A stretch of DNA of 63,998 nucleotides, filler included, from Stramenopiles sp. TOSAG23-2 (taxonomy: Eukaryota): NCBI GenBank assembly GCA_900128395.1. It is 5 parts of 5 records of this genome, joined end to end, with 100 filler letters (N's around TTAATTAATTAA, not from the genome) between each part and the next. Parts side by side here need not be neighbours in the genome. Positions count along the whole stretch, not along the records: positions 13,059 to 26,009 come from LT649824.1; 4 more parts are not named here. The stretch is one strand, 5' to 3'. Both the position numbers and the translations under genes were made by a program. Positions within the stretch are counted from its first letter, which is position 1. Each line of letters starts with the position of its first letter. The notes under the pieces are model-generated. The model was not told the origin of the DNA, searched no databases, and saw only the letters and a list, made by a program, of their open reading frames with translations. Shown here piece after piece: positions 15,278 through 56,587 of the stretch.

Positions 15278-17215
15278 TTACCCTTTCTTCCTTCTAAATG
15301 GATTGACACCACGTCGATATTTCAATAAAAGACTACCTTTACCTCTACCTTCTTTAAATGCTTGGACTTTCTTTGTCTTAATCGTAAGGAATTTTTTAGA
15401 ATTGACAACAATTGTATTCGCTTCTCTTAATTTTCTTCTTGCTCTAATATCATCTTGTATTTTTTGTAAACGATCTTCTTCTTCTTTTAATAATTGCATA
15501 TGTATCTGTTGTTCCTCACGAATCTTTCGCCTACGTTCCATCTCATCTTCTTTTCGTTTTGATAAATCATTTTCATGCGTTGATCGCATGTTAAAACTCT
15601 CTAATTCATTATGATACTCGTTGCAATTTGGGCAAAGTTTTGCATTCATGCTATATGAACCTTTAAAAAATCGATGATCACGAGCTTCACGTAAACAGAT
15701 CCGTTTTTCAGGATCAATGACTAATATTTTATCTAATAAATCGACCATATCTTCAGGATACCCTGAAAATGCTTTATCAATAGAACGATCGCAATGTTTG
15801 AAACTTTTTAACATTTGAACGCTTTCATTCGTAAAATTAGTCTCTAACAATTTTTCCCAATAAGATGCATCAGGAGTTCCACATAATTTTATAATTTTCA
15901 TCAATTGATCTATCTCTGAACTTCCAGGCAATATTGGCCTACCACTTCGTAACATCTCTGCCATGATACAACCAGCTGCCCATAGATCAAGTTTCGTATC
16001 GTATAATCCTTTCTTTCGCGCTTTTTGTCTTTTTTCTTGTAATAATAATTCCGGTGCACGCCAACATAAACTAACAACTTCTACCGTATATGGATTTCGT
16101 ACAGAGACTGGACCACCCATATTATTTTCATTGGGGCAAAAATAATTTAAATACCTTGGAGTTTCCAACGTTGTATTGAATTTAAATCCAGCACCTGATG
16201 TCCCTAAAGGAGATTTTGATGGTATAAATTCTCCTACATCGTATTTTGTTCTATTTTTATCATCTTTTGGATGATCATTATATTTAGTAGTAGTGAAAAA
16301 CAAGGGGTATCCTTTATTGCTTGGATGAGATTGATCAAATTCATAAATAGCAGGGCATAAAAGACGTAGAGCTATACGTGGTACTGCTACTGGAGAATGT
16401 TTATGCCATGGTCCCCTTGTCATCCAAAAACAACCATCAATAACACGAACGGTAATTAAAGTCTCATTCTTTGTTTCAATTAATTCTTTACGTGCCATAC
16501 CCCAATCAGCAAATTTAATTGTATGCGAATTTTGAGACAATAATAAATTTGCAGGCTTTAAATCACGATGCATAATTTTCCGTTCCTCTGCAAATATTAA
16601 TGCATTTAAAATTTGTTTCATATAACAACGAACGTGATCCATCGTTATAATCGTAGTTGGATTTGCTATAAGAGCACCAAAATCATAATCCACGTATTCG
16701 AATACAAGACAAATAGCATCTTTCCATTCTTTTGAATCTTCATTATCGTATTTTTGATCTGCAAGCACTACATCCAATAATCCAACTACATTGGGATGTC
16801 TTAAATTCATAGGCAAGACACGTTCTGATATTAAAATTTCAATTTCACGAATAGTAGTAATAGGAAAACCTTCATTATATTTTTCCGCCCAAGCCATTTT
16901 AATTTTTTTAATAGCAACTGGTTTGCCATCTTTTTTTCTCCTTGCTTTTGTTACCATACCATATTGACCTTCACCTAATATTTGTACCAATTCATATGAA
17001 TCGGAGCATTTTCTTTTAGTTAATGGAGTCTCTACACTTGTTTGTACAGGTCGATGTATTGGATATACTTTATTTAAAATATTAGTATTTAATAATGTTG
17101 AATGTGAACGATAAAATGTTTTCGTTGTTAAATTATTACTCTTATCCTGTTGTTGATCTTGTTTATTTACATATAAATTTAATTTATTTGTTACGTCATC
17201 ATTAAATTGAAACAT
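15278..17215 (-). CDS. Cyclin-dependent kinase, CDK9/CDK12 (PITAIRE-like) class, with large activation-loop insertion
   Basis: LGEGQYG, VAIKK, GFPITTIREI, HRDLKPAN, DWG, YT.EVVSLCWRAPE, DLWAAGC; ~125-aa insert between DWGMARK and PYT. Confidence 0.9.
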   Translation of the reverse strand: MFQFNDDVTNKLNLYVNKQDQQQDKSNNLTTKTFYRSHSTLLNTNILNKVYPIHRPVQTSVETPLTKRKCSDSYELVQILGEGQYGMVTKARRKKDGKPVAIKKIKMAWAEKYNEGFPITTIREIEILISERVLPMNLRHPNVVGLLDVVLADQKYDNEDSKEWKDAICLVFEYVDYDFGALIANPTTIITMDHVRCYMKQILNALIFAEERKIMHRDLKPANLLLSQNSHTIKFADWGMARKELIETKNETLITVRVIDGCFWMTRGPWHKHSPVAVPRIALRLLCPAIYEFDQSHPSNKGYPLFFTTTKYNDHPKDDKNRTKYDVGEFIPSKSPLGTSGAGFKFNTTLETPRYLNYFCPNENNMGGPVSVRNPYTVEVVSLCWRAPELLLQEKRQKARKKGLYDTKLDLWAAGCIMAEMLRSGRPILPGSSEIDQLMKIIKLCGTPDASYWEKLLETNFTNESVQMLKSFKHCDRSIDKAFSGYPEDMVDLLDKILVIDPEKRICLREARDHRFFKGSYSMNAKLCPNCNEYHNELESFNMRSTHENDLSKRKEDEMERRRKIREEQQIHMQLLKEEEDRLQKIQDDIRARRKLREANTIVVNSKKFLTIKTKKVQAFKEGRGKGSLLLKYRRGVNPFRRKKG

Positions 17216-17745
17216 CTTGTTTTGTGTTAATTATGGATCATATATGTTTTCTTGGCTAATAATGATATAAAGTTTCTATTTTCTTTTCTTTTCTTTTATG
17301 ATATTTTTTTTATTATTATAAAGGTGTAAAAATTCAATTCATCATTATTATTCGATTTTAATTTTTTCGACGATTTTCATCATATCATCGTCTTAGAATC
17401 AGGGTTGGTTCTCAGACTTTTTTCACAGACTTTTTTCTTGCCGTCTGGCCATACCACCGTGGTGGTATAGGCATTTTCACCAATCACAGCATTTTGATGA
17501 TGATGACTGTTATAAATATTATCAACATTATCATTGCAATACTGTATTATAATACAATAGTATTGCTATTACTGTATTTATAATAACTAGCTATATATAA
17601 TATATATATATATATATGATACATTAGTTTGAAACAATATAGTACATAAAGATAAATTTACATGTTTCAAAAAAGAAATACATGCATACATATGTATATA
17701 TATACCTATTTTAATATATTAATACATACATAGATATCATTGAAC

Positions 17746-20700
17746 ATGGGGAGTTATTCAAGTTTTTCAGCAATAATAAGTGTATATTGCATACTTTTAT
17801 GTTTTATTAGTATATTAAACATAATATCTGCAGATGACAATGTACAATATGATAACATTGAAATTTTTGCACAAACCGTTAACGGAATAAATGTAGATAC
17901 TATTTTAGACTCTTGTTATCGTGGAAGGTACAAATCACACACTATTGTAACACAGGATGATGAGACGTATAATTGGGGTGAGTGTGCAGGTTTTGTAGAT
18001 TGTCCTAAAGGTTTTTATTGTGTAAAAGGTTTAAAACACCCTTGTCCAGCAGGTACGTTTGGCAATGAAACAAAAATTTACACAAAAGCTTGTAGTAGCC
18101 TGTGTCCAGCAGGGTATTATTGCCCTGAAAATACGATAGATCCAATACCTTGTGGCGATGGTAATTTTTGTCCAGTGGAAAGTGCTACTCCTACCATATC
18201 GAAAGTAGGATATTATACTGTCGGTGAAACCTCAACGTCGTCTTCTGATACTCATTCGAATGAAAAAATATGTGAACACGGACATTACTGCATTAACGGT
18301 GAGAAAAAAATGTGCCCTGGTGGAACGTATGGCAATAGTACTGGATTATCTACTATATTATGTAGTGGAATTTGTCGTCCAGGATTTTTTTGTCCAGAAG
18401 GAAGCATACATGAAATGGAATGTGGCGGAGATGAATTTTTCTGTCCAGAAGGTTCTAGCCGTAGAGAACGCGTGCTTTTAGGCGGCGATATAGGGCCAGA
18501 TAATCATGATAAAGGAGCTTTTTATACATTAGGTGGAACGCCAGATGGTAGCCATAGCAAAAATGCTACGAGAAACGACCAGAAACGATGTCCTCAAGGC
18601 TCATATTGTGTTAATGGTGTGCGTAGACCATGCCCAGCTGGAAGATATGGATCTCGACTTGGTGAAGATAGAGCGGATTGTGCCGGATTATGTGCGGAAG
18701 GTTTTTATTGTCCAGAAGGTAGTACCAAAGCACATGAACGTGCATGTGGTGGTCCAAGTCATTTTTGTCCAGAAGGTAGTCCATCCCCTAAAAAAGTTCA
18801 GAATGGTTATTTTTCATACGCATCTCCAACAAAACATTTAATTGGTGCGTTTGGCTATCCTGAAAGTTCCTTCTATACCGCGATAAATACTACTAATACG
18901 ACGGGCTTAAGGAAAACTGCTGAAGCTATTTGTGATCCTGGTCATTATTGCGTCGATGGGGTAAGGTTGCAATGTCCTATTGGTAGATATGGATCTACAT
19001 ATGGGTTAGCAAATAGCGATTGTACTGATAGATGTGCACCAGGGTATTATTGTAACAAAGCAAGTAAAGTGATCGATGAAAATGAATGTGGTGGATCCCA
19101 TTTATTTTGCCCGATAGGAACGGGAGTTCCCAAGCACGTGCATCAAGGCTACTATACAATCGGGGAGACATTGACAACACGTTATGATGAGAAACTATGC
19201 GAATTAGGTATGTGGTGTAATCATACTACTGGTTTGCAGACTCAATGTCCAGCTGGTAGATATGGTGGTAAATATGGTCTATATAACGATACTTGCTCTG
19301 GTAATTGTACAGGTGGATATTATTGCCCACTAGGCTCAGTAACAGCACAACAAGAACATTGTGGCAATCCAAAATATTATTGTCCAATTGGAACGCCATT
19401 AAGACGACTTGTAGATAAAGGTTACCATGGTGTACATGTAGATGAACCACCGATATATTACGATGAGAAAAATTTATCAACAAATGAAAAAGGAAGACGT
19501 TTTGAACTTATTGAAGTTCCAGATACTCGTTATACAACATTTTCCCATCAAGAAATATGCCCATTAGGTTCATATTGCGTTTTAGGGATACGATATTTAT
19601 GTCCAGCTGGTAGGTATGGTGGCGTAACTGGGTTAAGCGAGGCTATATGTAGTGGTAATGTTTCTGCTGGATATTTCGGTCCACCTGGCAGTTCCTCGAA
19701 AACAGAACATGAATGTGGCGGTGCACAATATTTTTGTCCCTCTGGTTCTGGTTCTCCTTATCCTGTATCATTAGGACATTACACGTGGTCTCCTTTGACA
19801 ACATTAAGGAATACATTAAATACATGTCATTCAGCAAATACGCAAATTAGTGATAATTCTTTAAATCCAGATACAGTAAATGATATACATTCGACAATAT
19901 ATGGATATTTAACAACATCGCAAGGAGCATTGACACCAAGTATTATACAAAATCCAACAGATGGAAATTATCAATTATTAACTGGAGTTGAAACAACGAC
20001 GAATGGTATTGGAACTGGATTGAAGTTAAATCTAGAAATTACTGGCGGGCCAATCAATGGGGGAACCGGTAGAAAAAATGTTACTAGTGTTACTGTCCAT
20101 ACTCCAGGAATAAATTACAAACCGGATGATACCGTCACCGTTAGTCATACTTTGCTGGCAAATACAAAAACTGATCTGATTATTAGATTATTAGATAACG
20201 ATTTTGATACTGTATGTAAGCGTTACACGTATGATGCAAAATATTTAGCAATGTACAATGATTATGGTGGTGAAAAAGTTAGGACATGGCAGCATATTTG
20301 TCCACCGGGGACCTATTGTAAAGATGGACATTTATGGGAACATCCTCCCGGTCGTTTTGGACGTACAAACGGCTCATATCAGGTAAATGGAACGGGAGAA
20401 TGCCAACCTGGTTTTTACTGCCCTGCCGGTTCAACTTCACCACAACAAGTACCTTGTGGTGGTCCACACGTATATTGTCCACGAGGAAGTGGAAATCCTA
20501 CGCCAGTCTCACAAGGTTACTACACATCCATTGGGTGGAAATATATTTCAAATGTAACGCATCCAACAACAAGACATTTGCTAGCGCCATCTGATCATGG
20601 TGGATCCAACAACAATGTCAATACGTATGGAAAATCAAATATAGTACAAGGCAATAGTCATTTAAAGTATGAACAAAAGAAATGTGAAGTTGGACATTAT

Positions 20701-22311
20701 TGTGTCGATGGATTAAGAAATGCATGCCCAGCAGGACGATATGCGGAAAGCGAAGGGGCATATCAAGAATTTTGCGAAGGTCCATGTTCAAAAGGATACT
20801 TTTGTCCTCATGGTAGTTATTCAAGAACACAATATGAATGTGGCTCACAGAGAGGCTTAGATGCAACAGGGGTCAAAGATCCTACTGCATTGTATTGCCC
20901 GAGTGGAATGAGCATAGAATGTGACACAGCAACAACAATCACAACATTTTTCAATGGTAAATCCCAAAAATATGAATCAGTACCAGGGGCATATTGCCCA
21001 ACTGGGATGACCACGGGTTCTGGGGTGCCTAAAATTGTGAAACCCGGTTACTACACAGTTGGTGGCGAACATTTGACAAATAAAACTCGGTTTGCACAGC
21101 GTATATGCCCAGTTGGTCATTATTGTACATATGGAAGACGAATTCGATGTCCCGCCGGCCGATATGGTGGATCCGAAGGCTTGCCAAATATTTCCTGTAC
21201 CGATCAATGTGATGCCGGATATTTTTGCCCACAAGGCTCTTGGAATAAAGATCAAGTAAAGTGTGGTCTAGGAACACGTTCACCATGCTATACGCATCCC
21301 CCTGGTACTGTTGCAACATATCGGCCGTCTAGTGAAAGAAGATGTGAATATTATCAAGGTCAAATGTTTCAACCTGTTGAAATTACCGTGGATGGGATTA
21401 CCATTATTCTGAATATGTATACTAGAGAAAGCGGTCCGCATAATATTACATATTTAGTTCCTGGTGATCTTGTCTACATGTCCTGTGAAACATATAAAGG
21501 TTCAGACGGCGAATACATGGTTCTAAATGTGACTGCAAATCACATTGAATTCGACAAAGCACATGGCGTGCCACGTAATATTTGGACACCTCAAACGTGT
21601 ACATTGACAACGTATAACAAAGCAAGGCAAGGCGATGGGGAATACTATCGTTGGAATCACTTGGTCCAAGAATTAAATGATGATGGACCATGGTCCTTAC
21701 ACCATCAAGAGACGGAACATTGGTTAGATGATGCGCCACGCCAATACCATGACCCAACGTTAATGCCACTTAAACCGGGAGAGCACAACGAAGTAGTACC
21801 CAATGGTGCACGGAGTGGACGGTTTGTACATTCTCAATTAGCACAGAAATGGACAAATGCTCATCCACGACAATACCACTACCATACTAGAGTACGCCAT
21901 CCATCACGACATCGAATTCCGGGAGAATCACCATCTGTATATTGCCCGCGAGGCTCTGGTGTACCAACTCAAGTTGAAATGGGATGGTATACAACAGGTG
22001 GAAACGAGACTGATAATATGACAAGAAGTGGAGAAAGAAAGTGTGACCCAGGGTACTTTTGTGAAGGTGGCAAAAAAATACAATGTCCACCTGGAAGATA
22101 TGGCAAAAGTTATGGCGAAACATCGGAGTTTTGTTCCGGTTATTGTCCAGCTGGATTCTATTGCCCATGGAACACAACGAATCCAATTGAATGCCCACTT
22201 GGGACTTATAGTGGGCATGGATACTTTCAATGTATGCAATGTAAGCAAAAAAGCGATTACCATGTACAAAGTCAAACTTGCCGTAATAATCGGAAATGTT
22301 GTAATACGTAG
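17746..22311 (+). CDS. Secreted Cys-rich repeat protein (GCC2/GCC3, ephrin-receptor-like repeats)
   Basis: Signal peptide; many CP.G.YC..G....CPAGRYG...GL....CSG.C..G.YCP.GS repeats. Confidence 0.85.
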   Translation: MGSYSSFSAIISVYCILLCFISILNIISADDNVQYDNIEIFAQTVNGINVDTILDSCYRGRYKSHTIVTQDDETYNWGECAGFVDCPKGFYCVKGLKHPCPAGTFGNETKIYTKACSSLCPAGYYCPENTIDPIPCGDGNFCPVESATPTISKVGYYTVGETSTSSSDTHSNEKICEHGHYCINGEKKMCPGGTYGNSTGLSTILCSGICRPGFFCPEGSIHEMECGGDEFFCPEGSSRRERVLLGGDIGPDNHDKGAFYTLGGTPDGSHSKNATRNDQKRCPQGSYCVNGVRRPCPAGRYGSRLGEDRADCAGLCAEGFYCPEGSTKAHERACGGPSHFCPEGSPSPKKVQNGYFSYASPTKHLIGAFGYPESSFYTAINTTNTTGLRKTAEAICDPGHYCVDGVRLQCPIGRYGSTYGLANSDCTDRCAPGYYCNKASKVIDENECGGSHLFCPIGTGVPKHVHQGYYTIGETLTTRYDEKLCELGMWCNHTTGLQTQCPAGRYGGKYGLYNDTCSGNCTGGYYCPLGSVTAQQEHCGNPKYYCPIGTPLRRLVDKGYHGVHVDEPPIYYDEKNLSTNEKGRRFELIEVPDTRYTTFSHQEICPLGSYCVLGIRYLCPAGRYGGVTGLSEAICSGNVSAGYFGPPGSSSKTEHECGGAQYFCPSGSGSPYPVSLGHYTWSPLTTLRNTLNTCHSANTQISDNSLNPDTVNDIHSTIYGYLTTSQGALTPSIIQNPTDGNYQLLTGVETTTNGIGTGLKLNLEITGGPINGGTGRKNVTSVTVHTPGINYKPDDTVTVSHTLLANTKTDLIIRLLDNDFDTVCKRYTYDAKYLAMYNDYGGEKVRTWQHICPPGTYCKDGHLWEHPPGRFGRTNGSYQVNGTGECQPGFYCPAGSTSPQQVPCGGPHVYCPRGSGNPTPVSQGYYTSIGWKYISNVTHPTTRHLLAPSDHGGSNNNVNTYGKSNIVQGNSHLKYEQKKCEVGHYCVDGLRNACPAGRYAESEGAYQEFCEGPCSKGYFCPHGSYSRTQYECGSQRGLDATGVKDPTALYCPSGMSIECDTATTITTFFNGKSQKYESVPGAYCPTGMTTGSGVPKIVKPGYYTVGGEHLTNKTRFAQRICPVGHYCTYGRRIRCPAGRYGGSEGLPNISCTDQCDAGYFCPQGSWNKDQVKCGLGTRSPCYTHPPGTVATYRPSSERRCEYYQGQMFQPVEITVDGITIILNMYTRESGPHNITYLVPGDLVYMSCETYKGSDGEYMVLNVTANHIEFDKAHGVPRNIWTPQTCTLTTYNKARQGDGEYYRWNHLVQELNDDGPWSLHHQETEHWLDDAPRQYHDPTLMPLKPGEHNEVVPNGARSGRFVHSQLAQKWTNAHPRQYHYHTRVRHPSRHRIPGESPSVYCPRGSGVPTQVEMGWYTTGGNETDNMTRSGERKCDPGYFCEGGKKIQCPPGRYGKSYGETSEFCSGYCPAGFYCPWNTTNPIECPLGTYSGHGYFQCMQCKQKSDYHVQSQTCRNNRKCCNT

Positions 22312-44248: not shown

Positions 44249-45443
44249 ATGGAAGGAGTAATGAAAAATAAAATAGTAGTCATCACCGGCGCGGCATCGG
44301 GGCAAGGAAAAGCCGAAGCAATATTATTTGCAAAATTAGGATGCAAAGTAGTCATATGTGATATCAATTTACAACCATTAAAAGAAGTTGAATATGAAAT
44401 TAAACAAAATGGTGGCAATGTTAAAGCATATCAATTAAATGTTGCAGATAAAGATGCAATTAAAGCATTTGCAAAAAATGTAGGAAATGATATTGGTATG
44501 ACAGATATTTTAATAAATAATGCAGGCGTAGGTGGTAGTTATCCTGTTACGCATGAGAATGATGATGAATTTGAAGCAAATTGGTCACGGCAACTTGCCG
44601 TAAATTTGACTAATATATATATACAAGATGGCGTCAAGAAATACAAAACAACGGAAAGAGGTGAAGGACGAAGACGACGATGATGAAATTAAAAACATAT
44701 ACGATATATGTGGTATACCAGGTTTGTTTAAAAATATTTTAAAATTTTTAAAAGTTAAATCTATATTAAAAATGAGTGAGTCTTGTTTAGTGAAAAATTT
44801 AGGACATACAAGTTTTAATGAGTGTGTAAGTGAAGCGATAAGTAAACCAAGGCAGTTGTATGAGCTATATCAAAGGTATGGAAATGAGTTTGAAGGGAGG
44901 TCGGCATTCATATGTGCATGTGATCTTGGACGTATGAATGATGATGAATTTGAAGCAAATTGGTCACGGCAACTTGCCGTAAATTTGACTGCACAAGTAC
45001 GATTGATAAGAGCTTTTATAAAACCATTAACACGTCAAGTTGGTGGTAGGATTATTAATATAGCATCTACTGAAGGTACTGGTGCAACATTGTTTAATGG
45101 TGCATATGTAGCAGCAAAGCATGGTTCTGTTGGTTTAACAAAAGCATTATCATTAGAATTAGCACCTCTTGGATGCACGGTTAATTGCGTTCAACCAGGA
45201 CCAATAAGAACTGGAATGACAAATCCAATACCAGAACGTCAAAAAAATTTATATTCGAAACGTTTAGTCCCAATGCGTCGTTATGGTTTACCTGAGGAAA
45301 TAGCAAATGTTGTTGCATTAATTGCAACGCCTGGTACGTCTTTTTTGAATGGTGCGATTATTCCAGTCGATGGTGGTTTATTAGCAAATAATGCTTTATT
45401 ACCAATGCGTGATTGGTGGATTAAAAAAGAATCTAAACTATGA
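44249..45443 (+). CDS. Short-chain dehydrogenase/reductase interrupted by a 324-bp foreign insert
   Basis: TGAASGQG, NNAG, YVAAKHG, VDGG; halves separated by 44612-44935, which is flanked by a 55-bp direct repeat (44557-44611, 44936-44990). Confidence 0.85.
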
Positions 45444-45809: not shown

Positions 45810-48800
45810 TCACACATCACCTTTCTTTATTCTCTCTGCTATATCATCCCCTTCCGTATCATTTGAAAAGATGTTACCTCTTGCAAATGGATTTGGACTT
45901 AATGGTACTTTCATACGCACACTCATTGCTTTTCCTTCAGATACTTGTTTTTGAATAAAATTAGCAACATCTTCAATATCTTCCTCTTCATCGCTACTAT
46001 ATTCAAATACATCATATGTAACTTCATCCCCACGATAATCACTCTGTTGCTTTCCCAACATGGAATTTTGTTCTTCAGTATATGCTATATGTTCTGCAAG
46101 TGCAGAGCTTCCATGGCGGTTTAATGATGTGTCATTTTTAATATCAGCTTGTTTATTTTCAAACATGAATGAAAATTGTAAAAGTTCATCTGTTGTAGGA
46201 CGTGTTTCTTCATTAAAATCGAAACACCGATTTAAAAATTCAACCAATGCTAATGAAGCGTCATCTGGGTATTCCTCTGTTGGTGGACTATCTGCATTTG
46301 AAATATAAAACATCAACGCCATTGCCGTATCAATGCCTTTAGAGGACCATGGTGGATTTCCTGTAAACATATTTAGAACCGTTCCGCCGACACTCCATAT
46401 ATCTGCTTTCCTGCCTTGCTTTTCCTGTCGGATCAATTCAGGTGCCATGAAATATGGTGTGCCACGAAATTCTAATTCTTCTTTCTTTGAAATGCTTTGT
46501 CCACTTGTTAATTGTCTTGCAGCTCCAAAATCAGCTAATTTAACAGTACCTAAGTCATTTATCAATACATTGCCTGGTTTTATATCTAAATGTATCACAT
46601 CGTTATCATGCAAATATTTCAGTCCCAGTAAAATTTGTTTTGTATATGTACGAGCAATCGATTCTGTTAACCGTCCAAATTTTTTTAATATATCGACTAA
46701 TGATCCAGCAGGAACCCATTCCGTAAAGATATACAGTTCCCTTGTCTCGCCATCCCATTGTGCCCCCAAGTAGCTTACGATATGCCTATGAGATAATTTT
46801 TTCATTACATTAATTTCATCTTGCAAATCTTTCAATTCTTCAGGATCAGAATTAGTTGCAATTTGTTTCACCGCCATCATTTCACCACTTTGTAAATTTA
46901 ATCCCATATAAACTGTACCATAAGCACCTTTCCCAATAATTTCACCTTTGCGCCATTCTCCCAAATCACCTCGTTCCCGTTTTTTTCCCTGCCTATCTTC
47001 TTCATTATTTGCTTTTTCGGTCGTTTCTTTCTTCCCTTTTTCCACAACTTGCTTTTTCTTGCCATTTTTTGGGCTACGGTGTATATTCAATGTTACATAT
47101 GCAACGGGAAAATATCCCTCCCCGCGACGAGATTGGCCAAACCACCACTCATCCGATTGAGTTGTATCTTGCACACTAATCAAATCATCTTTCTTCATAT
47201 CTAAGTCATTTTCATTCCCATCATAATTTGAAATGGCAAGTACATTAAATGGTGTTGCTGGTATATCATTCCAATCCATCTGAGCTGCTGTTTTGTTTAA
47301 AGATGAATCCATATTAGAATTACTATCTGTCCTAACTCTGGATGGTGCATGTTGCTTTGGTGGCGATGGGTAATATTCCGCTTGGTTCTCCTCCAATGGT
47401 TTTAATCCACATTTTTCACGCAATTTACCAACGACACGCAGGACTTTAGCAACGTGAATTTTTTTCACTCCAATGGACATTACATCATCACTTTGTAAAC
47501 CCAACAATGTTTCTCCGTCTATATCTGCCAATGCTTCTCGACGAAGCGATGACCGGACAACTTTTAATTCTTGATTGAATGCAAACCATTTCATGACTTC
47601 TCTTTCTCCCCAATCTTTTGCTTCCCCTTCCCGTAAGTTTGAAGCGCTTTTCCACTCGTCATAACTAAATCCAAAAAATATATTATATTGTATACCAACT
47701 TCTTTTCTTAAATCGCATAATCGATTGATAGTCTGGTCACAATTCGCACTATCATCGCGATCGATCGACCATAATTTATACCATTGTATTAACTCAATGG
47801 AATTATTATTATTATCATCGAAAAATTCAAGCGCTTCCCGTAATTCCCGATCACTCCAATAATTAAATCCAAAATCATTAACCATCCGCGTAAACTCTTC
47901 TTTTGAAATAACTCCTGTTCGACTTTGATCATATTGATCAAAGCAACTACGAATGCCACGATCAGCTGTTACAGGTACCAGTTGCCGCAGCATTTTTGGA
48001 GACATATGTTTGGACGACTTTCGAAAACTTTGCATTTGTTCTTCACTGGATAAACGTCGTAACGATGATTTTTTTACAAGTCTTACATTGGAAGATTTGG
48101 ACATTCGCAATGATTCTCTCATTGCTATTTCTAATTCAAGCTCTTCTTTTGATTTCTTTCGATTACGATGGTTATTATTATTTGCTGATGGTGATTCCCT
48201 TAGCGATGCTTCTTTTACCATTGCCATTTGCCGTGCTTCCCTTTCTGCTTGTCGTTTTCGCCTTTTTTCATCTTTTACACTTAAAAGCAATGCTTGACGA
48301 ATATTTTCATCATCGACATCGTTATTATTGTTATTATTACTATTATTATTGTTGTTGTTGTTGTTATCATAATTATCATTATTATTATGTTGTGGCGGAG
48401 AACCATACCGCGGCACATGGCAATATTCACAAATTTGGGAAGATGGGGCATTCATATATGTACAAGAAGGACATGCCCAATTAGCAGTTGGGGAAGAGTT
48501 TTGATGATAGGATGATGCATTATTGTGGCTGTTTGGGCTACCATATTCCATGCTTTCCACCTCTAAATTTTTATCATGCATCATTTTTTGAAATAACATA
48601 AAATCTTCAAAAGTTAATAGTTGCGTTAATAATGCTTTCAATGCTGCGTCACGTGGACCTTGATCAGGTTGTTGTAATTTTATTTCACACGCTTGAATAA
48701 ATTCCTCCGCGGTACTTCCTACATCGTTCAATACTCCATCTACTAAACCATCCACTACATCTTTAAACTTTTGAAAAATGTCATATTGTCCATGGTCATG

Positions 48801-49037
48801 TTCACCTTCTATATCTGCAAAAATTGCACAGTTTGTAGAAACAAAATTAGATATTATTTGCTTCCATTCTGCACTATTTATATAGTCATTTACACAATCA
48901 ATAATAGTATCATACGTCAATCTGGACCCTTGGTGGGTACCACCAGGACTATGCTTTGGTTGCGGTGTACCACACATTTCACAAGATAAATTATTTGAAT
49001 CATTTTCAAACGTACATGCTGCACATGCCCACTGCAT
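45810..49037 (-). CDS. STE11/NPK1-like MAPKKK with RanBP2-ZnF, BART, UIM, EF-hand, SAM and SH3 domains
   Basis: WACAACTFEN and WACPSCTYMN; BART-like segment; ELELEIAMRESL; DQSRTGVISKEE; SAM WGEREVMKWF..DIDGETLL; SH3 EWWFG..GEGYFPVAYV; kinase GKGAYG, HLDIKPGN, DFG, GTPYFMAPE. Confidence 0.85.
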   Translation of the reverse strand: MQWACAACTFENDSNNLSCEMCGTPQPKHSPGGTHQGSRLTYDTIIDCVNDYINSAEWKQIISNFVSTNCAIFADIEGEHDHGQYDIFQKFKDVVDGLVDGVLNDVGSTAEEFIQACEIKLQQPDQGPRDAALKALLTQLLTFEDFMLFQKMMHDKNLEVESMEYGSPNSHNNASSYHQNSSPTANWACPSCTYMNAPSSQICEYCHVPRYGSPPQHNNNDNYDNNNNNNNNSNNNNNNDVDDENIRQALLLSVKDEKRRKRQAEREARQMAMVKEASLRESPSANNNNHRNRKKSKEELELEIAMRESLRMSKSSNVRLVKKSSLRRLSSEEQMQSFRKSSKHMSPKMLRQLVPVTADRGIRSCFDQYDQSRTGVISKEEFTRMVNDFGFNYWSDRELREALEFFDDNNNNSIELIQWYKLWSIDRDDSANCDQTINRLCDLRKEVGIQYNIFFGFSYDEWKSASNLREGEAKDWGEREVMKWFAFNQELKVVRSSLRREALADIDGETLLGLQSDDVMSIGVKKIHVAKVLRVVGKLREKCGLKPLEENQAEYYPSPPKQHAPSRVRTDSNSNMDSSLNKTAAQMDWNDIPATPFNVLAISNYDGNENDLDMKKDDLISVQDTTQSDEWWFGQSRRGEGYFPVAYVTLNIHRSPKNGKKKQVVEKGKKETTEKANNEEDRQGKKRERGDLGEWRKGEIIGKGAYGTVYMGLNLQSGEMMAVKQIATNSDPEELKDLQDEINVMKKLSHRHIVSYLGAQWDGETRELYIFTEWVPAGSLVDILKKFGRLTESIARTYTKQILLGLKYLHDNDVIHLDIKPGNVLINDLGTVKLADFGAARQLTSGQSISKKEELEFRGTPYFMAPELIRQEKQGRKADIWSVGGTVLNMFTGNPPWSSKGIDTAMALMFYISNADSPPTEEYPDDASLALVEFLNRCFDFNEETRPTTDELLQFSFMFENKQADIKNDTSLNRHGSSALAEHIAYTEEQNSMLGKQQSDYRGDEVTYDVFEYSSDEEEDIEDVANFIQKQVSEGKAMSVRMKVPLSPNPFARGNIFSNDTEGDDIAERIKKGDV

Positions 49038-49980
49038 TATTTTTTTTAATTTGAATCATTTTCAAACGTACATGCCGCACATGCCCACTGCATTATTTTT
49101 TTTCACAAAATCAAAATTATAGTTATATATTATTTTATTACACCAGACTAAATAATTAAATTAAATAGAAAAAAAAAATTCACTGATGATTATTATTATT
49201 GTGTCAATTTTTAATATAAAAAAACAAAAACTAAAAACAAAAAAAAAAGTTGTCGTCAAATATTATACAGCTATTGATTTACAATTGTTGGTTAAATAAT
49301 ATTGCCAAACAATTCGTGTTGCTATAATGTACATACACTGTGACACTCTGCATGACACATGATGATATACACGAGATGGTGATTTTCTATTATTTATTTT
49401 TCTATTTCGTTTTTTCTGGAATCCGTCAATCCTAGTCGAGTGCCTCCATACTAACACGGCTTATTTTATATATGTTTCAATTCCCCTGATTGTTATTCTA
49501 TGCTAATCAATTAATAGTAAATGTTGTTTTGGCCATCTACAGGGAAATTTTTCATCAAATTTCACTAAAATCAACATTTTCAACCTAAATTCTTATAATT
49601 CATTGTTATGATGATGGATTTTTCATTTCATTACATGAAAACAAAGGAAAAACATTGAAAATACCTTTTTAAACTTAGGCTCCACTAGTATACCATTTTT
49701 CCTATCAATTGGCAAAATAATTTTGACATTTCTTGTTTTCAGAAATTAGGGATAGCAGAATTTCTGGCATCAAATTTTTACATTAAAATTTGTACTTAAA
49801 TAAATTATTAATTTACCGAAATGACGAAACAAAAGTTTAAAATTTATAAAAATCATTAAATTATAAAAATATCCATTTTTTAAAACACAAAATACATGTA
49901 AAAATTACATCGTCATTTTAACAATTTCATCATCTTCTTAAAACTACATATAAATACCATTAATATGAAATCATGCAAAA

Positions 49981-52084: not shown

Positions 52085-52184
52085 NNNNNNNNNNNNNNNN
52101 NNNNNNNNNNNNNNNNNNNNNNNNNNNNTTAATTAATTAANNNNNNNNNNNNNNNNNNNNNNNNNNNNNNNNNNNNNNNNNNNN
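52085..52184. other. Artificial contig spacer
   Basis: N-run TTAATTAATTAA N-run. Confidence 0.98.
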
Positions 52185-52236
52185 TGCAATTGCAAGATCA
52201 ACTACAAAATTATTACGACGTAGTTATACAAATCAA

Positions 52237-53967
52237 ATGAAAATTCGTAATAAAACAACAGCTATTGCTACTGCAAGTAATTATAATAAAGAATATCATT
52301 GGAATCATTTAAATATTGCTTTAACAACTATGATAGCATCTGCTGGAGTTGCAGTAGTTGTATCAGCAGAAGAAGATATTAATAATAATAACAATAATAC
52401 TAATGCAAAACCAGATGATAATACATATAATAAACAACAACAACAAGAACCACCTGCTCCTAAAAAAAAGCCTATGACTCGACGAAAATTAGCACGGCGC
52501 AATAGTCGTAGAAGACAACGGAGACATTATCCATATGTAATTATTGGTGGTGGAACAACTTCATATGCAGCAATTGAAGCAATTAGACAAATACAACCTG
52601 ATGCTAATATTTTAATGATTTCAGATGAACCTGCTTTGCCACGTGCAGATGTTGATGATGATAGTGATTTTTTTGAATGTAATTCTTTATTGTCTATATA
52701 CAATGAGTATCGTAGGCACATAAGCTCAAGATTGGAGACTGAACCTGATGCATATAGCTCGAAACCCATTACATTGTTGCTTGGTAGACGTAAATTACAT
52801 TTAGATGCTGAATCAAGAACAGTCGTTTTGCTTGATGGATCAAGAATAACATATGATAAATGTTTACTTGCAAGTGCCGGAGATCCTAGGGATTTATATG
52901 TATTGGATAATAATCAAATACCATTTACATTGCGTGAAAACATCAATACATTGACTAAATTGCAACATTTTGTTGATTTAGATGCATCGTTACGCAATGA
53001 TGGTGTGGAACATTTAACGGTTGTAGGTGGTGGTTTCCTAGGAACGGAAATGGCTTGTTCTGTGATGGATCATGTAAACTCTGGAAGAATTCAAGTTTCA
53101 CATGTTATGGTTGAAACAGGACCATTGCAACGTTATTTGCCAAGATATTTGAGCCAATATATTGGTCGTCAAATGCGAGAAAATCTTGGCATAGATATTA
53201 TATCAGATCGTTTAGTAACAGGCTTATCTCACAACAAGAGGAACAACAGCAAAAATAAAAATGAAAAAGTGGTAGAGCCATTGCGTCCAGTAGTAGTGGA
53301 TATATCTGGATATGAAAATGAAAAGCTAGAAACAGATTATGTTTTATTGGCTTCAACACATATTACACCAAATACACGTGTTGGGGAGGAAAGTGGCCTT
53401 GAGATTGATTCAACAAATGGGGGTATTGTAGTCAATGGTGCATTTGAAAGTATGAATGGATTATATATTGCAGGAAATTTAGCATCATATTATGATGCTG
53501 CTATTGGTCGTAGACGTGTCGATCGATATGATCATGCTGTTAATAGTGGTTTATTGGCAGGGAAAAATATGGCAATGACAAATATGGAAAACAATAAAGA
53601 GCAAAGTCTTTATCGACATCAACCATCATTTAAAAGTGAATTACGTGGTTTAGGGGTAACAATTGAAGGGGTTGGAATTATTGATTCAAAGTTAACTACA
53701 ATTGGTGTTTGGCTTGCAAATAGAGATAAAGAAACCAATGAAATATTAGAACGTACGCCTACTAGTGATTTTCAACGTGGTGTTGTATATTATTTAAAAG
53801 ACAATGTAGTTGTTGGTGTTATTTTATGGAATGCAAGTGATCAAATGAACAAAGCAAGGGAAATTGTTAACGATAAAAAAATACTGAATCAAAGCAATGT
53901 AGCAAATGAATTACAAAAAATGATTTCATTGGCACCAGAAGAATCGTTAGATATTATACAATCGTGA
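52237..53967 (+). CDS. AIFM1: Apoptosis-inducing factor-like FAD/NADH oxidoreductase (start probably upstream of the contig edge)
   Basis: PYVIIGGGT, VVGGGFLGTE, GRRRVDRYDHAVNSGLLAGKNM, GVVYYLKD..VVGVILWN; frame open to the contig start (AIARSTTKLLRRSY, presequence-like). Confidence 0.85.
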   Translation: MKIRNKTTAIATASNYNKEYHWNHLNIALTTMIASAGVAVVVSAEEDINNNNNNTNAKPDDNTYNKQQQQEPPAPKKKPMTRRKLARRNSRRRQRRHYPYVIIGGGTTSYAAIEAIRQIQPDANILMISDEPALPRADVDDDSDFFECNSLLSIYNEYRRHISSRLETEPDAYSSKPITLLLGRRKLHLDAESRTVVLLDGSRITYDKCLLASAGDPRDLYVLDNNQIPFTLRENINTLTKLQHFVDLDASLRNDGVEHLTVVGGGFLGTEMACSVMDHVNSGRIQVSHVMVETGPLQRYLPRYLSQYIGRQMRENLGIDIISDRLVTGLSHNKRNNSKNKNEKVVEPLRPVVVDISGYENEKLETDYVLLASTHITPNTRVGEESGLEIDSTNGGIVVNGAFESMNGLYIAGNLASYYDAAIGRRRVDRYDHAVNSGLLAGKNMAMTNMENNKEQSLYRHQPSFKSELRGLGVTIEGVGIIDSKLTTIGVWLANRDKETNEILERTPTSDFQRGVVYYLKDNVVVGVILWNASDQMNKAREIVNDKKILNQSNVANELQKMISLAPEESLDIIQS

Positions 53968-54705: not shown

Positions 54706-54856
54706 ACTTTATTTACATCTATATATATACAATTTGATCATTATTTCTCCAGCTTGTTATTCGCTTGTGGTGGTTGTTTTGTATATTTATGTGTAAGCTC
54801 ATTCGAACTTAGTACAGCTGTAGGTGCTTATTATACGACGTAGTTATACAAATCAA

Positions 54857-56587
54857 ATGAAAATTCGTAATAAAACAACAGCTATTGCTACTGCAAGTAA
54901 TTATAATAAAGAATATCATTGGAATCATTTAAATATTGCTTTAACAACTATGATAGCATCTGCTGGAGTTGCAGTAGTTGTATCAGCAGAAGAAGATATT
55001 AATAATAATAACAATAATACTAATGCAAAACCAGATGATAATACATATAATAAACAACAACAACAAGAACCACCTGCTCCTAAAAAAAAGCCTATGACTC
55101 GACGAAAATTAGCACGGCGCAATAGTCGTAGAAGACAACGGAGACATTATCCATATGTAATTATTGGTGGTGGAACAACTTCATATGCAGCAATTGAAGC
55201 AATTAGACAAATACAACCTGATGCTAATATTTTAATGATTTCAGATGAACCTGCTTTGCCACGTGCAGATGTTGATGATGATAGTGATTTTTTTGAATGT
55301 AATTCTTTATTGTCTATATACAATGAGTATCGTAGGCACATAAGCTCAAGATTGGAGACTGAACCTGATGCATATAGCTCGAAACCCATTACATTGTTGC
55401 TTGGTAGACGTAAATTACATTTAGATGCTGAATCAAGAACAGTCGTTTTGCTTGATGGATCAAGAATAACATATGATAAATGTTTACTTGCAAGTGCCGG
55501 AGATCCTAGGGATTTATATGTATTGGATAATAATCAAATACCATTTACATTGCGTGAAAACATCAATACATTGACTAAATTGCAACATTTTGTTGATTTA
55601 GATGCATCGTTACGCAATGATGGTGTGGAACATTTAACGGTTGTAGGTGGTGGTTTCCTAGGAACGGAAATGGCTTGTTCTGTGATGGATCATGTAAACT
55701 CTGGAAGAATTCAAGTTTCACATGTTATGGTTGAAACAGGACCATTGCAACGTTATTTGCCAAGATATTTGAGCCAATATATTGGTCGTCAAATGCGAGA
55801 AAATCTTGGCATAGATATTATATCAGATCGTTTAGTAACAGGCTTATCTCACAACAAGAGGAACAACAGCAAAAATAAAAATGAAAAAGTGGTAGAGCCA
55901 TTGCGTCCAGTAGTAGTGGATATATCTGGATATGAAAATGAAAAGCTAGAAACAGATTATGTTTTATTGGCTTCAACACATATTACACCAAATACACGTG
56001 TTGGGGAGGAAAGTGGCCTTGAGATTGATTCAACAAATGGGGGTATTGTAGTCAATGGTGCATTTGAAAGTATGAATGGATTATATATTGCAGGAAATTT
56101 AGCATCATATTATGATGCTGCTATTGGTCGTAGACGTGTCGATCGATATGATCATGCTGTTAATAGTGGTTTATTGGCAGGGAAAAATATGGCAATGACA
56201 AATATGGAAAACAATAAAGAGCAAAGTCTTTATCGACATCAACCATCATTTAAAAGTGAATTACGTGGTTTAGGGGTAACAATTGAAGGGGTTGGAATTA
56301 TTGATTCAAAGTTAACTACAATTGGTGTTTGGCTTGCAAATAGAGATAAAGAAACCAATGAAATATTAGAACGTACGCCTACTAGTGATTTTCAACGTGG
56401 TGTTGTATATTATTTAAAAGACAATGTAGTTGTTGGTGTTATTTTATGGAATGCAAGTGATCAAATGAACAAAGCAAGGGAAATTGTTAACGATAAAAAA
56501 ATACTGAATCAAAGCAATGTAGCAAATGAATTACAAAAAATGATTTCATTGGCACCAGAAGAATCGTTAGATATTATACAATCGTGA
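54857..56587 (+). CDS. AIFM1: Second, apparently identical AIF copy (probable assembly duplication)
   Basis: 54834-56590 repeats 52214-53970; translated proteins are identical. Confidence 0.45.
   Translation: MKIRNKTTAIATASNYNKEYHWNHLNIALTTMIASAGVAVVVSAEEDINNNNNNTNAKPDDNTYNKQQQQEPPAPKKKPMTRRKLARRNSRRRQRRHYPYVIIGGGTTSYAAIEAIRQIQPDANILMISDEPALPRADVDDDSDFFECNSLLSIYNEYRRHISSRLETEPDAYSSKPITLLLGRRKLHLDAESRTVVLLDGSRITYDKCLLASAGDPRDLYVLDNNQIPFTLRENINTLTKLQHFVDLDASLRNDGVEHLTVVGGGFLGTEMACSVMDHVNSGRIQVSHVMVETGPLQRYLPRYLSQYIGRQMRENLGIDIISDRLVTGLSHNKRNNSKNKNEKVVEPLRPVVVDISGYENEKLETDYVLLASTHITPNTRVGEESGLEIDSTNGGIVVNGAFESMNGLYIAGNLASYYDAAIGRRRVDRYDHAVNSGLLAGKNMAMTNMENNKEQSLYRHQPSFKSELRGLGVTIEGVGIIDSKLTTIGVWLANRDKETNEILERTPTSDFQRGVVYYLKDNVVVGVILWNASDQMNKAREIVNDKKILNQSNVANELQKMISLAPEESLDIIQS

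What the first reader, a model, noticed from the sequence alone, without database searches (positions are those of the whole stretch)
16097..16485. CDK with a cupredoxin-like domain inserted inside its activation loop
Seen: an otherwise intact CDK9/CDK12-class kinase has ~125 extra in-frame residues between DWGMARK and the T-loop PYTVEVVSLCWRAPE, where CDKs have about 10. The insert reads ITVRVIDGCFWM...LRL....YEFDQSHPSNKGYPLFFTTT...KYDVG...PLGTSGAGFKF...TPRYLNYFCPNENNMGGPVSV. Knowledge (from memory, not searched): this follows, end to end, a cupredoxin-like module common in marine phage and bacterial proteins (TY.FDQSDSSNSGHPLRFSTT...GTPGTSGA...AP.TLYYYC..HSGMG). At the type-1 copper ligand positions Cys and Met are kept, while the two His become Tyr (GYP) and Glu (CPNE). 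The P+1 loop is also altered (SLCWR instead of TLWYR). Inference: a prokaryote/phage-type domain grafted into the regulatory loop could make this a metal-, redox- or ligand-gated transcriptional CDK. I know of no described CDK with this architecture.
Basis: partly seen in the sequence, partly recalled or inferred. Interest (0 to 1): 0.85.

Follow-up and report, generated by a model that had tools for sequence, protein, structure and literature searches.

The report
CDK12-like kinase with cupredoxin-fold T-loop insert
An uncultured marine protist encodes a CDK12/CDK9-like kinase whose activation loop holds a whole folded domain related to a phage tail-fibre module; the domain has lost the usual copper-binding residues, and I found no published kinase built this way.

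Summary
The gene at 15281-17215 (minus strand, 645 aa) is an intact CDK12/13/9-like kinase. Residues 244-373 (window 16097-16486) form a 130-residue in-frame insert where human CDK12 has 6 residues.

The insert is coding, not an intron:
- It is kept as protein in five further metagenomic orthologue clusters (53-98% identity).
- dN/dS is 0.17.
- The candidate GT/AG pair is absent in orthologues.
- PolyA-RNA contigs from two studies read through the 3' junction.

The insert is homologous over its whole length to a repeat module of marine phage tail-fibre and virion proteins (E down to 1e-10 against 1.8 billion proteins). Its AlphaFold model (pLDDT 86) matches cupredoxins first with two structural aligners.

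The metal-gating idea is weakened. 61 of 91 non-kinase module copies carry His-Cys-His-Met. The kinases carry Tyr-Cys-(Glu/Gln/Arg)-(Met/Ile).

My best reading is a copper-free beta-sandwich fixed three residues before the T-loop threonine, acting as a docking or gating platform. This mechanism is inferred and untested.

It is a new variant of a known kind. No such architecture turned up in the literature searches I ran.

The parts
15281..17215 (-). Whole coding sequence of the kinase (645 aa, P0001); stop codon at 15278-15280; no intron needed
   Evidence: full-length alignment with orthologues P0002-P0006
16487..16996 (-). Kinase N-lobe and catalytic loop, residues 74-243. Holds the GEGQYG loop, VAIK Lys103, the PITTIRE helix (Glu124), HRD 216-218, DWG 237-239 (16499-16507) and Arg242
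   Evidence: Pfam Pkinase 74-246; invariant columns; CDK12 alignment 68-243
16097..16486 (-). 130-residue insert (residues 244-373): a cupredoxin-fold beta-sandwich homologous to the marine phage tail-fibre module
   Evidence: phmmer: 43 non-kinase hits at E<=1e-3, best 1.1e-10; full-length alignment A2; a profile built without kinases finds only this ORF in the window, E 1.7e-13; AF2 pLDDT 85.6; cupredoxin fold hits; phage tail-fibre fold hits; dN/dS 0.17
16307..16309 (-). Tyr303, at the position of the first copper-ligand His of the canonical module
   Evidence: Tyr in 6 of 6 kinases; His in 69 of 91 other copies (counted from the table)
16118..16138 (-). Degenerate ligand loop Cys360-x2-Glu363-x2-Met366 (canonical module: Cys-x2-His-x2-Met)
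   Evidence: Cys in 6 of 6; the His2 position is E,E,Q,E,Q,R; the Met position is M,M,M,M,I,I
16430..16432 (-). Cys262, a cysteine seen only in the kinases, in the first hairpin of the insert
   Evidence: Cys in 6 of 6 kinases and in 0 of 91 other copies
16085..16087 (-). Thr377, the T-loop threonine, three residues after the last residue of the insert
   Evidence: one search aligns NPYTVEVVSLCWRAPE with the CDK12 T-loop stretch; Thr or Ser in all full-length orthologues
15656..16096 (-). Kinase C-lobe, residues 374-520, with the altered P+1 loop SLCWRAPE and an 8-residue basic insertion after APE
15281..15655 (-). C-terminal tail: conserved CPNC..H motif and a long predicted helix
   Evidence: helix 546-598
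16108..16491 (-). Candidate 384-nt GT...AG intron; rejected
   Evidence: present in the window; GT and AG both absent in L003, and AG absent in L004; polyA-RNA contigs X5 record 17 and X10 record 2 read through 16108

Best explanation
This is a lineage-specific CDK12/CDK9-like kinase of uncultured marine protists. One complete beta-sandwich domain of about 120 residues was inserted once, long ago, into its activation segment. The domain has a cupredoxin fold and is related to a repeat module of marine phage tail-fibre proteins. It lies between Arg242 (the Arg after DWG) and the T-loop Thr377.

Shown: the insert is translated, is under purifying selection and is predicted to fold.

Shown: the catalytic residues, the PITTIRE helix, the three arginines that in CDKs hold the phospho-threonine, and the T-loop Thr are all kept. 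The protein is therefore most likely an active kinase that is still activated through its T-loop.

Inferred: the canonical type-1 copper site is gone, so the domain most likely serves as a copper-free scaffold. It is tied by very short linkers, about 9 residues before and 3 after, right beside the T-loop Thr and the remodelled P+1 pocket (SLCWR). From there it would act as a built-in platform that docks or gates substrates or partners such as the cyclin.

My odds:
- real translated cupredoxin-fold insert: about 0.9
- no classical blue-copper site: about 0.8
- docking or gating platform rather than a metal sensor: about 0.4
For: Coding and selected:
- All 6 relatives above 50% identity keep the insert in frame, with whole-codon indels. 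These are P0002-P0007, out of 469 proteins with E<=0.001, 120 of them listed.
- Insert identity to P0001 (97, 76, 65, 50, 46%) tracks whole-protein identity (98, 78, 72, 53, 54%).
- Window versus L004: the insert has dN 0.17, dS 1.0 and omega 0.17 over 102 codons; the C-lobe has omega 0.08. Versus L003, pS is 0.84 (saturated) and pN is 0.21.

RNA:
- Contigs of all 4 RNA runs lie inside the insert.
- X5 record 17 (15786-16382) and X10 record 2 (15955-16269) come from polyA libraries of two studies. Both bridge the 3' junction. No joint was reported.
- The candidate splice sites are not conserved.

Homology:
- 45 hits at E<=1e-3 among 1.84 billion representatives; 43 are non-kinase module proteins.
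- The alignment covers all 130 residues.
- The reverse profile gives E 1.7e-13.
- The module is found in 17 phage records, under features named tail fiber or virion structural protein.

Fold:
- AF2 gives pLDDT 85.6 and pTM 0.80.
- All 11 Foldseek PDB matches at E<=1e-3 are rusticyanin or copper nitrite reductase.
- The VIA-align top hits are rusticyanin (Z 8.8, rmsd 2.3 over 101 residues), nitrite reductase (Z 8.5) and AcoP (Z 7.8).
- BFVD cyanophage tail-fibre models match at TM 0.6-0.72, E about 1e-8.

Copper site: 61 of 91 non-kinase copies are H-C-H-M; the kinases are Y-C-E/Q/R-M/I.

Kinase intact.

Single origin: the six kinase inserts form one clade, SH-aLRT 99.
Against: - No functional data exist. 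The docking or gating role is inferred only from position and linker length.
- The whole-kinase AF2 model left the insert at pLDDT 30-45, so its placement on the kinase is unknown.
- VIA-align Z of 8-9 is close to what that tool reports as a typical best score for models without a clear match (note). The fold call rests on nearly all top hits being cupredoxins, not on score height.
- Pfam gives mixed signals on module relatives. Copper-bind scores 22.3 bits on P0123 (cut-off 21.2) and 19.3 on P0126. CBM_4_9 scores 29.2 bits on P0130 (cut-off 25.9). The insert itself has no Pfam match.
- The profile search of solved-structure sequences found no cupredoxin.
- Two invariant cysteines (Cys262, Cys360), with Met or Ile at 366, leave room for a rebuilt metal or redox site.
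- RNA contigs can come from unspliced RNA or contaminating DNA.
Confidence: 0.6

Rival explanations
1. Metal or redox switch. The old copper site was rebuilt around Cys360 and the kinase-only Cys262, perhaps with Met366 and Glu363. Metal binding or disulfide formation would then move the adjacent T-loop and gate the kinase.
For: Cys360 and Cys262 are invariant in 6 of 6 kinases, and Cys262 is found in 0 of 91 other module copies. The ligand loop keeps its Cys-x2-X-x2-Met spacing. The domain ends 3 residues before Thr377.
Against: Tyr replaces His1 in 6 of 6 kinases. The His2 position varies (E,E,Q,E,Q,R), and Met is Ile in 2 of 6, so no fixed ligand set beyond the cysteines is conserved. 30 of 91 non-kinase copies also lack the full ligand set, so the fold is often used without the site. 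Whether Cys262 lies near Cys360 could not be measured, because no coordinates were available.
Confidence: 0.12
2. Cyclin surrogate. The inserted domain holds the activation segment in the active shape by itself, so the kinase no longer needs a cyclin.
For: The domain sits in the part of the T-loop that cyclins reposition in CDKs (established CDK2 and CDK9 structural knowledge, recalled). The P+1 loop and DFG are remodelled together with the insert in 6 of 6 orthologues: SLCWR and DWG.
Against: The PITTIRE cyclin-binding helix is kept almost as in CDK12, which argues for a retained cyclin partner.
Confidence: 0.13
3. Inactive scaffold. The 130-residue insert blocks the activation segment, so the protein acts as a pseudokinase.
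For: There is a very large insertion in the activation segment, plus unusual DWG and SLCWR motifs.
Against: Lys103, Glu124, HRD, Asn223, Asp237, APE, Arg242 and Thr377 are all conserved across orthologues down to 53% identity. The C-lobe omega is 0.08. Greatwall is active with a 550-residue insertion at the same place (abstract of PMC11961639, listed).
Confidence: 0.08
4. Not part of the protein: an in-frame intron, a retained intron or an assembly chimera.
For: An in-frame GT(16491)...AG(16108) pair of 384 nt exists.
Against: Open frame by chance: P = 5e-5. Omega is 0.17. The GT and AG are absent in L003, and the AG is absent in L004. Two polyA-RNA contigs read through the acceptor and no joint was seen. 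The same architecture occurs on five separate metagenome contigs. The insert is homologous to a known protein module and has a confident fold.
Confidence: 0.02

Closest known systems
Human CDK12 / CDK13 / CDK9 (transcriptional CDKs)
   Same: They are the best sequence matches among solved structures (177, 167.5 and 165 bits). They share a PITAIRE-like helix (here PITTIRE), the HRD motif, the Arg after DFG, the T-loop Thr and a CMGC-type C-lobe.
   Different: This protein has 130 residues where CDK12 has 6. It has DWG instead of DFG, SLCWR instead of TLWYR, and an extra 8-residue basic stretch after APE. The subgroup assignment rests on best hits only. No CDK tree was built.
Greatwall/MASTL kinase (large insertion in the activation segment)
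   Same: It is an active kinase whose activation segment is split by a very long insertion, 550 aa according to the abstract of PMC11961639 (listed; only the abstract was seen).
   Different: It belongs to the AGC family, not the CDKs. Its insertion is described there as a target of Cdk1 phosphorylation, not as a folded domain of a known fold. As I recall, it is largely non-conserved and disordered; I did not check this here.
Repeat module of marine phage tail-fibre and virion structural proteins (no Pfam name)
   Same: Sequence homology runs over the whole 130 residues. The predicted fold is the same. The Cys-x2-X-x2-Met spacing is the same.
   Different: In phages the module occurs in tandem copies in virion proteins, and most copies carry His-Cys-His-Met (61 of 91). 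Here it is a single copy inside a kinase, with Tyr and Glu/Gln/Arg at the two His positions and an extra Cys.
Type-1 blue copper proteins (rusticyanin, plastocyanin, amicyanin, pseudoazurin, AcoP)
   Same: They share the Greek-key beta-sandwich fold and are the top structural matches. The ligand loop sits at the same place before the last strand; this placement is inferred from the family alignment and recalled cupredoxin ligand patterns.
   Different: Sequence identity is only 12-16%. Two of the four copper ligands are missing. No Pfam Copper-bind match was found. The protein is a CDK12/9-type kinase, a class that normally works in the nucleus, rather than a periplasmic or lumenal electron carrier (inference from class; no localisation test was run).
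Copper-free cupredoxin-fold domains (SufI/FtsP, quinol oxidase subunit II CyoA, factor V/VIII A domains)
   Same: They give precedent for the cupredoxin fold serving as a scaffold without a copper centre. They appear among the fold matches (2uxt_A, 1cyx_A, 9jbv_A). That they lack copper is recalled knowledge.
   Different: None of them is inserted in a kinase.

Membership tests
Cyclin-dependent kinases, CDK12/13/9 subgroup | Eukaryotic protein kinase core with catalytic Lys, alphaC Glu, HRD, DFG Asp and APE | tested here: met
   Pfam Pkinase E 4.8e-47. Lys103, Glu124, His216-Arg217-Asp218, Asp237 and APE are conserved. DFG reads DWG.
Cyclin-dependent kinases, CDK12/13/9 subgroup | PSTAIRE-type helix of the PITAIRE/PITALRE kind | tested here: met
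   EGFPITTIREI aligns with EGFPITAIREI of CDK12.
Cyclin-dependent kinases, CDK12/13/9 subgroup | T-loop Thr with the Arg triad (alphaC, HRD, after DFG) | tested here: met
   Thr377, Arg123, Arg217 and Arg242. The equivalence to the CDK phospho-Thr pocket comes from alignment plus recalled CDK2 knowledge.
Cyclin-dependent kinases, CDK12/13/9 subgroup | Closest relatives are CDK12/13/9 | tested here: met
   In the PDB, CDK12 > CDK13 > CDK9 > CDK2. The best named database hits are CDK12, BUR1, CRK7/Lsk1 and CDK9, at 33-38% identity over at most 30% of the query. No phylogeny was built.
Cyclin-dependent kinases, CDK12/13/9 subgroup | Short activation segment between the Arg after DFG and the T-loop Thr | tested here: not met
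   130 residues against 6 in CDK12 and 4-6 in three comparators.
Cyclin-dependent kinases, CDK12/13/9 subgroup | Activity depends on a cyclin partner | not testable with these tools
   No genome is held for the organism. No partner was identified.
Cupredoxin fold | Greek-key beta-sandwich that superposes on known cupredoxins | tested here: met
   The model has pLDDT 85.6. By Foldseek, all 11 matches at E<=1e-3 are cupredoxin proteins. VIA-align gives rusticyanin Z 8.8, rmsd 2.3 over 101 residues, and nearly all of the 50 listed rows are cupredoxin-fold proteins.
Type-1 (blue) copper proteins | His, Cys, His, Met copper ligands | tested here: not met
   The window protein has Tyr303, Cys360, Glu363 and Met366. 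Across the orthologues the pattern is Y-C-E/Q/R-M/I.
Type-1 (blue) copper proteins | Pfam Copper-bind (PF00127) match | tested here: not met
   There is no match on the insert at E<=1. The only matches are borderline ones on module relatives: P0123 at 22.3 bits (cut-off 21.2) and P0126 at 19.3.
Type-1 (blue) copper proteins | Binds copper | not testable with these tools
   Needs purified protein.
Marine phage tail-fibre repeat module | Significant full-length sequence similarity to the module | tested here: met
   (E 1.7e-13 with a profile built from 27 non-kinase proteins).
Marine phage tail-fibre repeat module | Same predicted fold as the phage proteins | tested here: met
   BFVD gave 58 matches at E<=1e-3. 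The top ones are cyanophage long tail-fibre and baseplate-wedge connector models at TM 0.6-0.72.
Marine phage tail-fibre repeat module | Tandem copies in virion or surface proteins | tested here: not met
   There is a single copy inside a kinase, and no other copy in the 64-kb window.
Spliceosomal intron | Conserved GT...AG boundaries, no coding constraint, absent from mature mRNA | tested here: not met
   The boundaries are not conserved. Omega is 0.17. PolyA contigs read through the 3' site.

The most novel reading that the evidence does not exclude
The degenerate copper site has been rebuilt into a cysteine-based metal or redox centre. It would use the invariant Cys360, the kinase-only Cys262, and perhaps Met366 and Glu363. 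The centre sits three residues from the T-loop threonine. A CDK12/9-type transcriptional kinase would then read cellular copper or redox state directly through its own activation loop, using a domain that traces back to phage or giant-virus structural proteins.
Probability: 0.1. Interest if true: 0.85.

Novelty: new variant of a known kind. Interest (0 to 1): 0.62.

Why it matters
CDK activation loops are short and highly conserved, and their position is the core of CDK regulation by cyclins and by T-loop phosphorylation. A complete folded domain tied within three residues of the T-loop threonine is an architecture I found in none of the searches run. It is conserved across orthologues so far apart that synonymous sites are saturated.

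It is a natural case of domain insertion into the most regulation-sensitive loop of a kinase. That bears on how kinases gain new inputs and on designing switchable kinases.

It also shows a module typical of marine phage tail fibres reused inside a eukaryotic CDK12/9-like kinase. The donor and the route are unresolved.

The organism is uncultured. The gene is nonetheless present in polyA metatranscriptomes of several studies, so expression constructs can be designed from the sequence.

Tried and rejected
- **Whole-kinase AlphaFold** with a 10-row alignment left the insert at pLDDT 30-45, so the domain's placement on the kinase is unknown.
- **Complex prediction** on N-lobe, C-lobe and insert as three chains gave no verdict: score 0.00 and controls not run. 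It counts neither for nor against packing.
- **RNA cover of the 5' junction (16486-16491):** none of the 4 laid runs has a contig there. The nearest are X3 record 11, which ends at 16469, and X2 record 8, which starts at 16546. The 5' junction is therefore untested by RNA. X2 record 6 extends only 28 nt past the candidate acceptor, and X3 record 10 has only 27 nt on the exon side. I did not count either as bridging.
- **Profile of alignment A2 against solved-structure sequences** gave only a chance-level Fc-receptor hit, E 0.24.
- **Pfam on the insert** gave only a 2OG-FeII_Oxy_6 hit at E 0.078, far below its cut-off.
- **The search for homologous proteins with the insert, 'longer' lengths,** returned only the 4 kinases, so no named module proteins came from it.
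- **Cluster look-up of 10 module proteins** gave no names apart from one 48-aa fragment labelled 'predicted small metal-binding protein'.
- **Scans of viral contigs with P0145 and P0137** (degenerate-module proteins) found no relatives.
- **ESM Atlas** gave no usable hit.
- **The domain tree** did not resolve the donor. The sister group has SH-aLRT 72 and involves long branches.
- **Rfam on the whole window** found nothing.
- **Literature:** the searches found nothing on this architecture. Only listings and abstracts were read. Supplements were not seen.
Full report
**What is there**

The window is AT-rich and gene-dense. Its neighbouring genes are ordinary eukaryotic housekeeping genes: EMG1/NEP1, HscB, two AIF-like oxidoreductases, an M50 peptidase and a DUF2009 E2-like protein. 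No whole genome is held for it.

A neighbouring DUF2009 protein has its best named hits in stramenopiles. Hondaea is at 55% identity, followed by Ochromonas, Phytophthora and Tribonema. Its closest relatives are unnamed marine metagenome proteins. The source is therefore an uncultured marine protist, perhaps stramenopile-related. I hold that placement weakly.

The finding lies in one uninterrupted reading frame on the minus strand, 15281-17215, which encodes 645 residues.

**The kinase**

- Pfam Pkinase matches in two stretches.
- Among solved structures the best matches are CDK12 (177 bits), CDK13 (167.5), CDK9 (165) and CDK2 (155).
- The CDK12 alignment covers query 68-243 and 374-518, against chain 9-171 and 178-309. 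CDK12 has 6 residues where this protein has 130.
- All of the following are conserved in the orthologues: Lys103, Glu124 in a PITTIRE helix (CDK12 has PITAIRE), HRD 216-218, Asp237, Arg242, APE and the T-loop Thr377 (Ser in one orthologue).
- Three motifs differ from ordinary CDKs in all six insert-bearing proteins: DWG for DFG, SLCWR for TLWYR in the P+1 loop, and an 8-residue basic stretch after APE.
- The subgroup call rests on best hits. I built no CDK tree.

**Is the insert really part of the protein?**

Sequence evidence says yes.

- The frame is open over 130 codons. The chance of that at this composition is 5e-5, and the other five frames have 5-16 stops.
- Third-position GC is 0.18, as in the rest of the gene at 0.20.
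- GC over the insert region is 0.315-0.375 in the 200-nt windows, like coding sequence. Flanking intergenic DNA is 0.19-0.25.

Conservation evidence agrees.

- A search of 5.8 billion proteins gave six relatives above 50% identity (P0002-P0007). The next best hit drops to generic CDKs at 33-38% identity over the N-lobe only.
- All six keep the insert in frame with whole-codon length differences (119-135 residues). P0007 diverges part-way, apparently through a frameshift.
- Five metagenome contigs carry the gene.
- Against L004 the insert has dS 1.0, dN 0.17 and omega 0.17 over 102 codons. The C-lobe has omega 0.08.
- Against L003, synonymous sites are saturated (pS 0.84) while pN in the insert is 0.21.

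The candidate intron is rejected.

- The GT at 16491 and AG at 16108 define a 384-nt in-frame segment.
- They are not conserved. L003 reads CGG AAA at the donor and has no AG at the acceptor. L004 has no AG at the acceptor.

RNA evidence is partial.

- Seventeen listed runs on record as RNA hold part of the gene.
- In the four runs laid, all have contigs inside the insert.
- Two polyA-library contigs from different studies run continuously from the C-lobe into the insert: X5 record 17 (15786-16382) and X10 record 2 (15955-16269).
- No joint was reported.
- The 5' junction is not covered in these four runs. These are contigs rather than raw reads, so RNA proof covers the 3' junction only.

**What the insert is**

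- phmmer with the 130 residues against 1.84 billion representatives found 45 proteins at E<=1e-3. Two are kinase fragments. The other 43 are multi-repeat proteins, the best at E 1.1e-10.
- Aligned with 27 of those 43, the insert matches over its full length, first strand to last.
- A profile built only from those 27 non-kinase proteins finds the kinase frame in a six-frame translation of the window at E 1.7e-13, and finds nothing else.
- A canonical single-module protein (P0154) matches 17 phage records by tblastn. These include cyanophages, Methylophilales phage Melnitz and a Pelagibacter phage. The matched features are annotated tail fiber or virion structural protein.

**Fold**

- With alignment A2, AlphaFold gives pLDDT 85.6 and pTM 0.80, an all-beta domain of nine strands.
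- By Foldseek against the PDB, all 11 matches at E<=1e-3 are rusticyanin or copper nitrite reductase. Plastocyanin, AcoP, pseudoazurin and laccases follow.
- VIA-align against 48,161 chains, which does not depend on Foldseek, gives rusticyanin at Z 8.8 (rmsd 2.3 over 101 residues), nitrite reductase at Z 8.5 and AcoP at Z 7.8. Nearly every one of the 50 listed rows is a cupredoxin-fold protein.
- The tool warns that Z 7-8 is a common best score. The weight therefore lies in the consistency of the hits, not in their height.
- Against viral models the matches are stronger: TM 0.6-0.72, E about 1e-8. They are cyanophage long tail-fibre and baseplate-connector proteins, plus 'beta-sandwich proteins' of giant-virus metagenome bins.
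- Sequence-level links to named cupredoxins are weak. The insert has no Pfam hit.
- Copper-bind scores are borderline on two module proteins, and CBM_4_9 scores just above its cut-off on another.
- No PDB sequence hit was found.

**The copper site**

I tabulated 97 domain copies, 6 from kinases and 91 from the 43 other proteins.

| Group | His1 | Cys | His2 | Met |
|---|---|---|---|---|
| 61 of 91 non-kinase copies | His | Cys | His | Met |
| 6 of 6 kinases | Tyr | Cys | Glu, Glu, Gln, Glu, Gln, Arg | Met, Met, Met, Met, Ile, Ile |

- The canonical copies have Cys-x2-His-x2-Met spacing. As I recall, that is the amicyanin-type type-1 pattern.
- The other 30 non-kinase copies are degenerate in various ways.
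- The kinases also carry a cysteine (Cys262) that none of the 91 other copies has.
- A classical blue-copper centre is thus very unlikely.
- The variability at two positions argues against any fixed four-ligand site.
- The two invariant cysteines keep a cysteine-based site possible. I could not measure their distance.

**Origin**

The six kinase inserts form one clade (SH-aLRT 99) on a long stem, which points to a single old insertion. The sister group is unresolved: support is 72 and long branches are involved.

Some long proteins of unknown origin carry F5/8 type C and Laminin_G_3 domains. They share the Tyr variant and an N-terminal strand pattern similar to the kinases'. Their modules score lower than the canonical ones, and scans of viral contigs with two of them found nothing. 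I therefore cannot say whether the donor was a phage, a giant virus, a bacterium or a protist gene.

**How it most likely works**

Shown: the protein is an intact CDK12/9-like catalytic core. A folded, selected beta-sandwich begins about 9 residues after Arg242 and ends 3 residues before Thr377.

Inferred: with linkers that short, the domain cannot swing far from the activation segment. It must sit beside the P+1 pocket, which has co-changed, and near the face where CDKs meet their cyclin. My best reading, at about 0.4, is a copper-free platform that docks or gates substrates or partners.

The rivals are:
- a cysteine-based metal or redox switch (0.12)
- a cyclin surrogate (0.13)
- a pseudokinase scaffold (0.08)
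- a non-coding segment or artefact (0.02)

The whole-kinase model and the complex test gave no usable placement.

**Comparison and novelty**

Large insertions at this spot are known. Greatwall has a 550-residue insertion in its activation segment (abstract of PMC11961639). From memory, NDR/LATS and plant AGCVIII kinases have shorter ones.

Copper-free cupredoxin folds are also known. Examples are SufI, CyoA and the factor VIII A domains, all seen among the fold hits; that they lack copper is recalled.

I could not find a folded domain of known fold inside a CDK T-loop, or a cupredoxin in any kinase.
- 'Cupredoxin' with 'cyclin-dependent kinase' gave 28 papers. None of the 10 listed was relevant.
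- Two further searches gave nothing relevant.
- Only listings and abstracts were read.

I rate it a new variant of a known kind, with interest 0.62. The architecture is surprising and well supported. Its function is open, and the organism is uncultured.

Noticed in passing
window 17734-22311 (+): A 1525-aa open frame next to the kinase, divergently oriented. It has a hydrophobic N-terminus and dozens of cysteine-rich repeats of the CP.G.YG / C.G.C..G.YC type. It has no Pfam family at E<=1.
   Followed up: partly
window 52141-53967 and 54824-56587 (+): Two tandem AIF-like oxidoreductase genes (Pyr_redox_2 + AIF_C) are 99.94% identical over 1759 nt. This is either a very recent tandem duplication or an assembly duplication.
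   Followed up: partly
window 44557-44990 (+): A short-chain dehydrogenase gene is split into two overlapping frames. A perfect 55-nt direct repeat lies 379 nt apart, so the same 17 residues are encoded twice. It looks like an insertion with a long target duplication, or an assembly artefact. I found no obvious GT-AG pair that restores the frame.
   Followed up: partly
window 45813-49055 (-): A 1081-aa kinase with an unusual mix of domains: BART (ARL2-binding), RanBP-type zinc fingers, EF-hand and SH3, followed by the kinase domain.
   Followed up: no
window 15996-16060 (-), residues about 386-406 of P0001: A second lineage-specific feature of the kinase is an 8-residue basic stretch (KRQKARKK-like) inserted just after APE. 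It is absent in CDK12 and present in the insert-bearing orthologues. It could be a nuclear localisation signal or a contact for the inserted domain.
   Followed up: no
proteins P0124, P0127, P0137, P0145, P0136 (metagenomic; not in the window): These are long multi-repeat proteins of 1200-2400 aa. Their copies of the same module have also lost the copper ligands (Tyr, Asn or Gln for His1; Ser or Glu for Cys). They are combined with F5/8 type C, Laminin_G_3 and Gly_rich_2 domains. Their origin is unknown, and they are possible relatives of the donor.
   Followed up: partly
proteins P0007 and P0122 (orthologue fragments): Two metagenomic gene calls of the P0004-like orthologue lose similarity part-way through the insert, after the GAGFKF stretch or near it. 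This is probably due to frameshifts in low-coverage assemblies rather than to real variants.
   Followed up: no
window 17380-17470: An inverted repeat of about 11 nt per arm, with one mismatch and a 4-nt loop (GCCATACCACC..GGTGGTATAGGC), lies in the divergent promoter region between the kinase and the cysteine-rich gene. I read it. No Rfam family matches there.
   Followed up: partly
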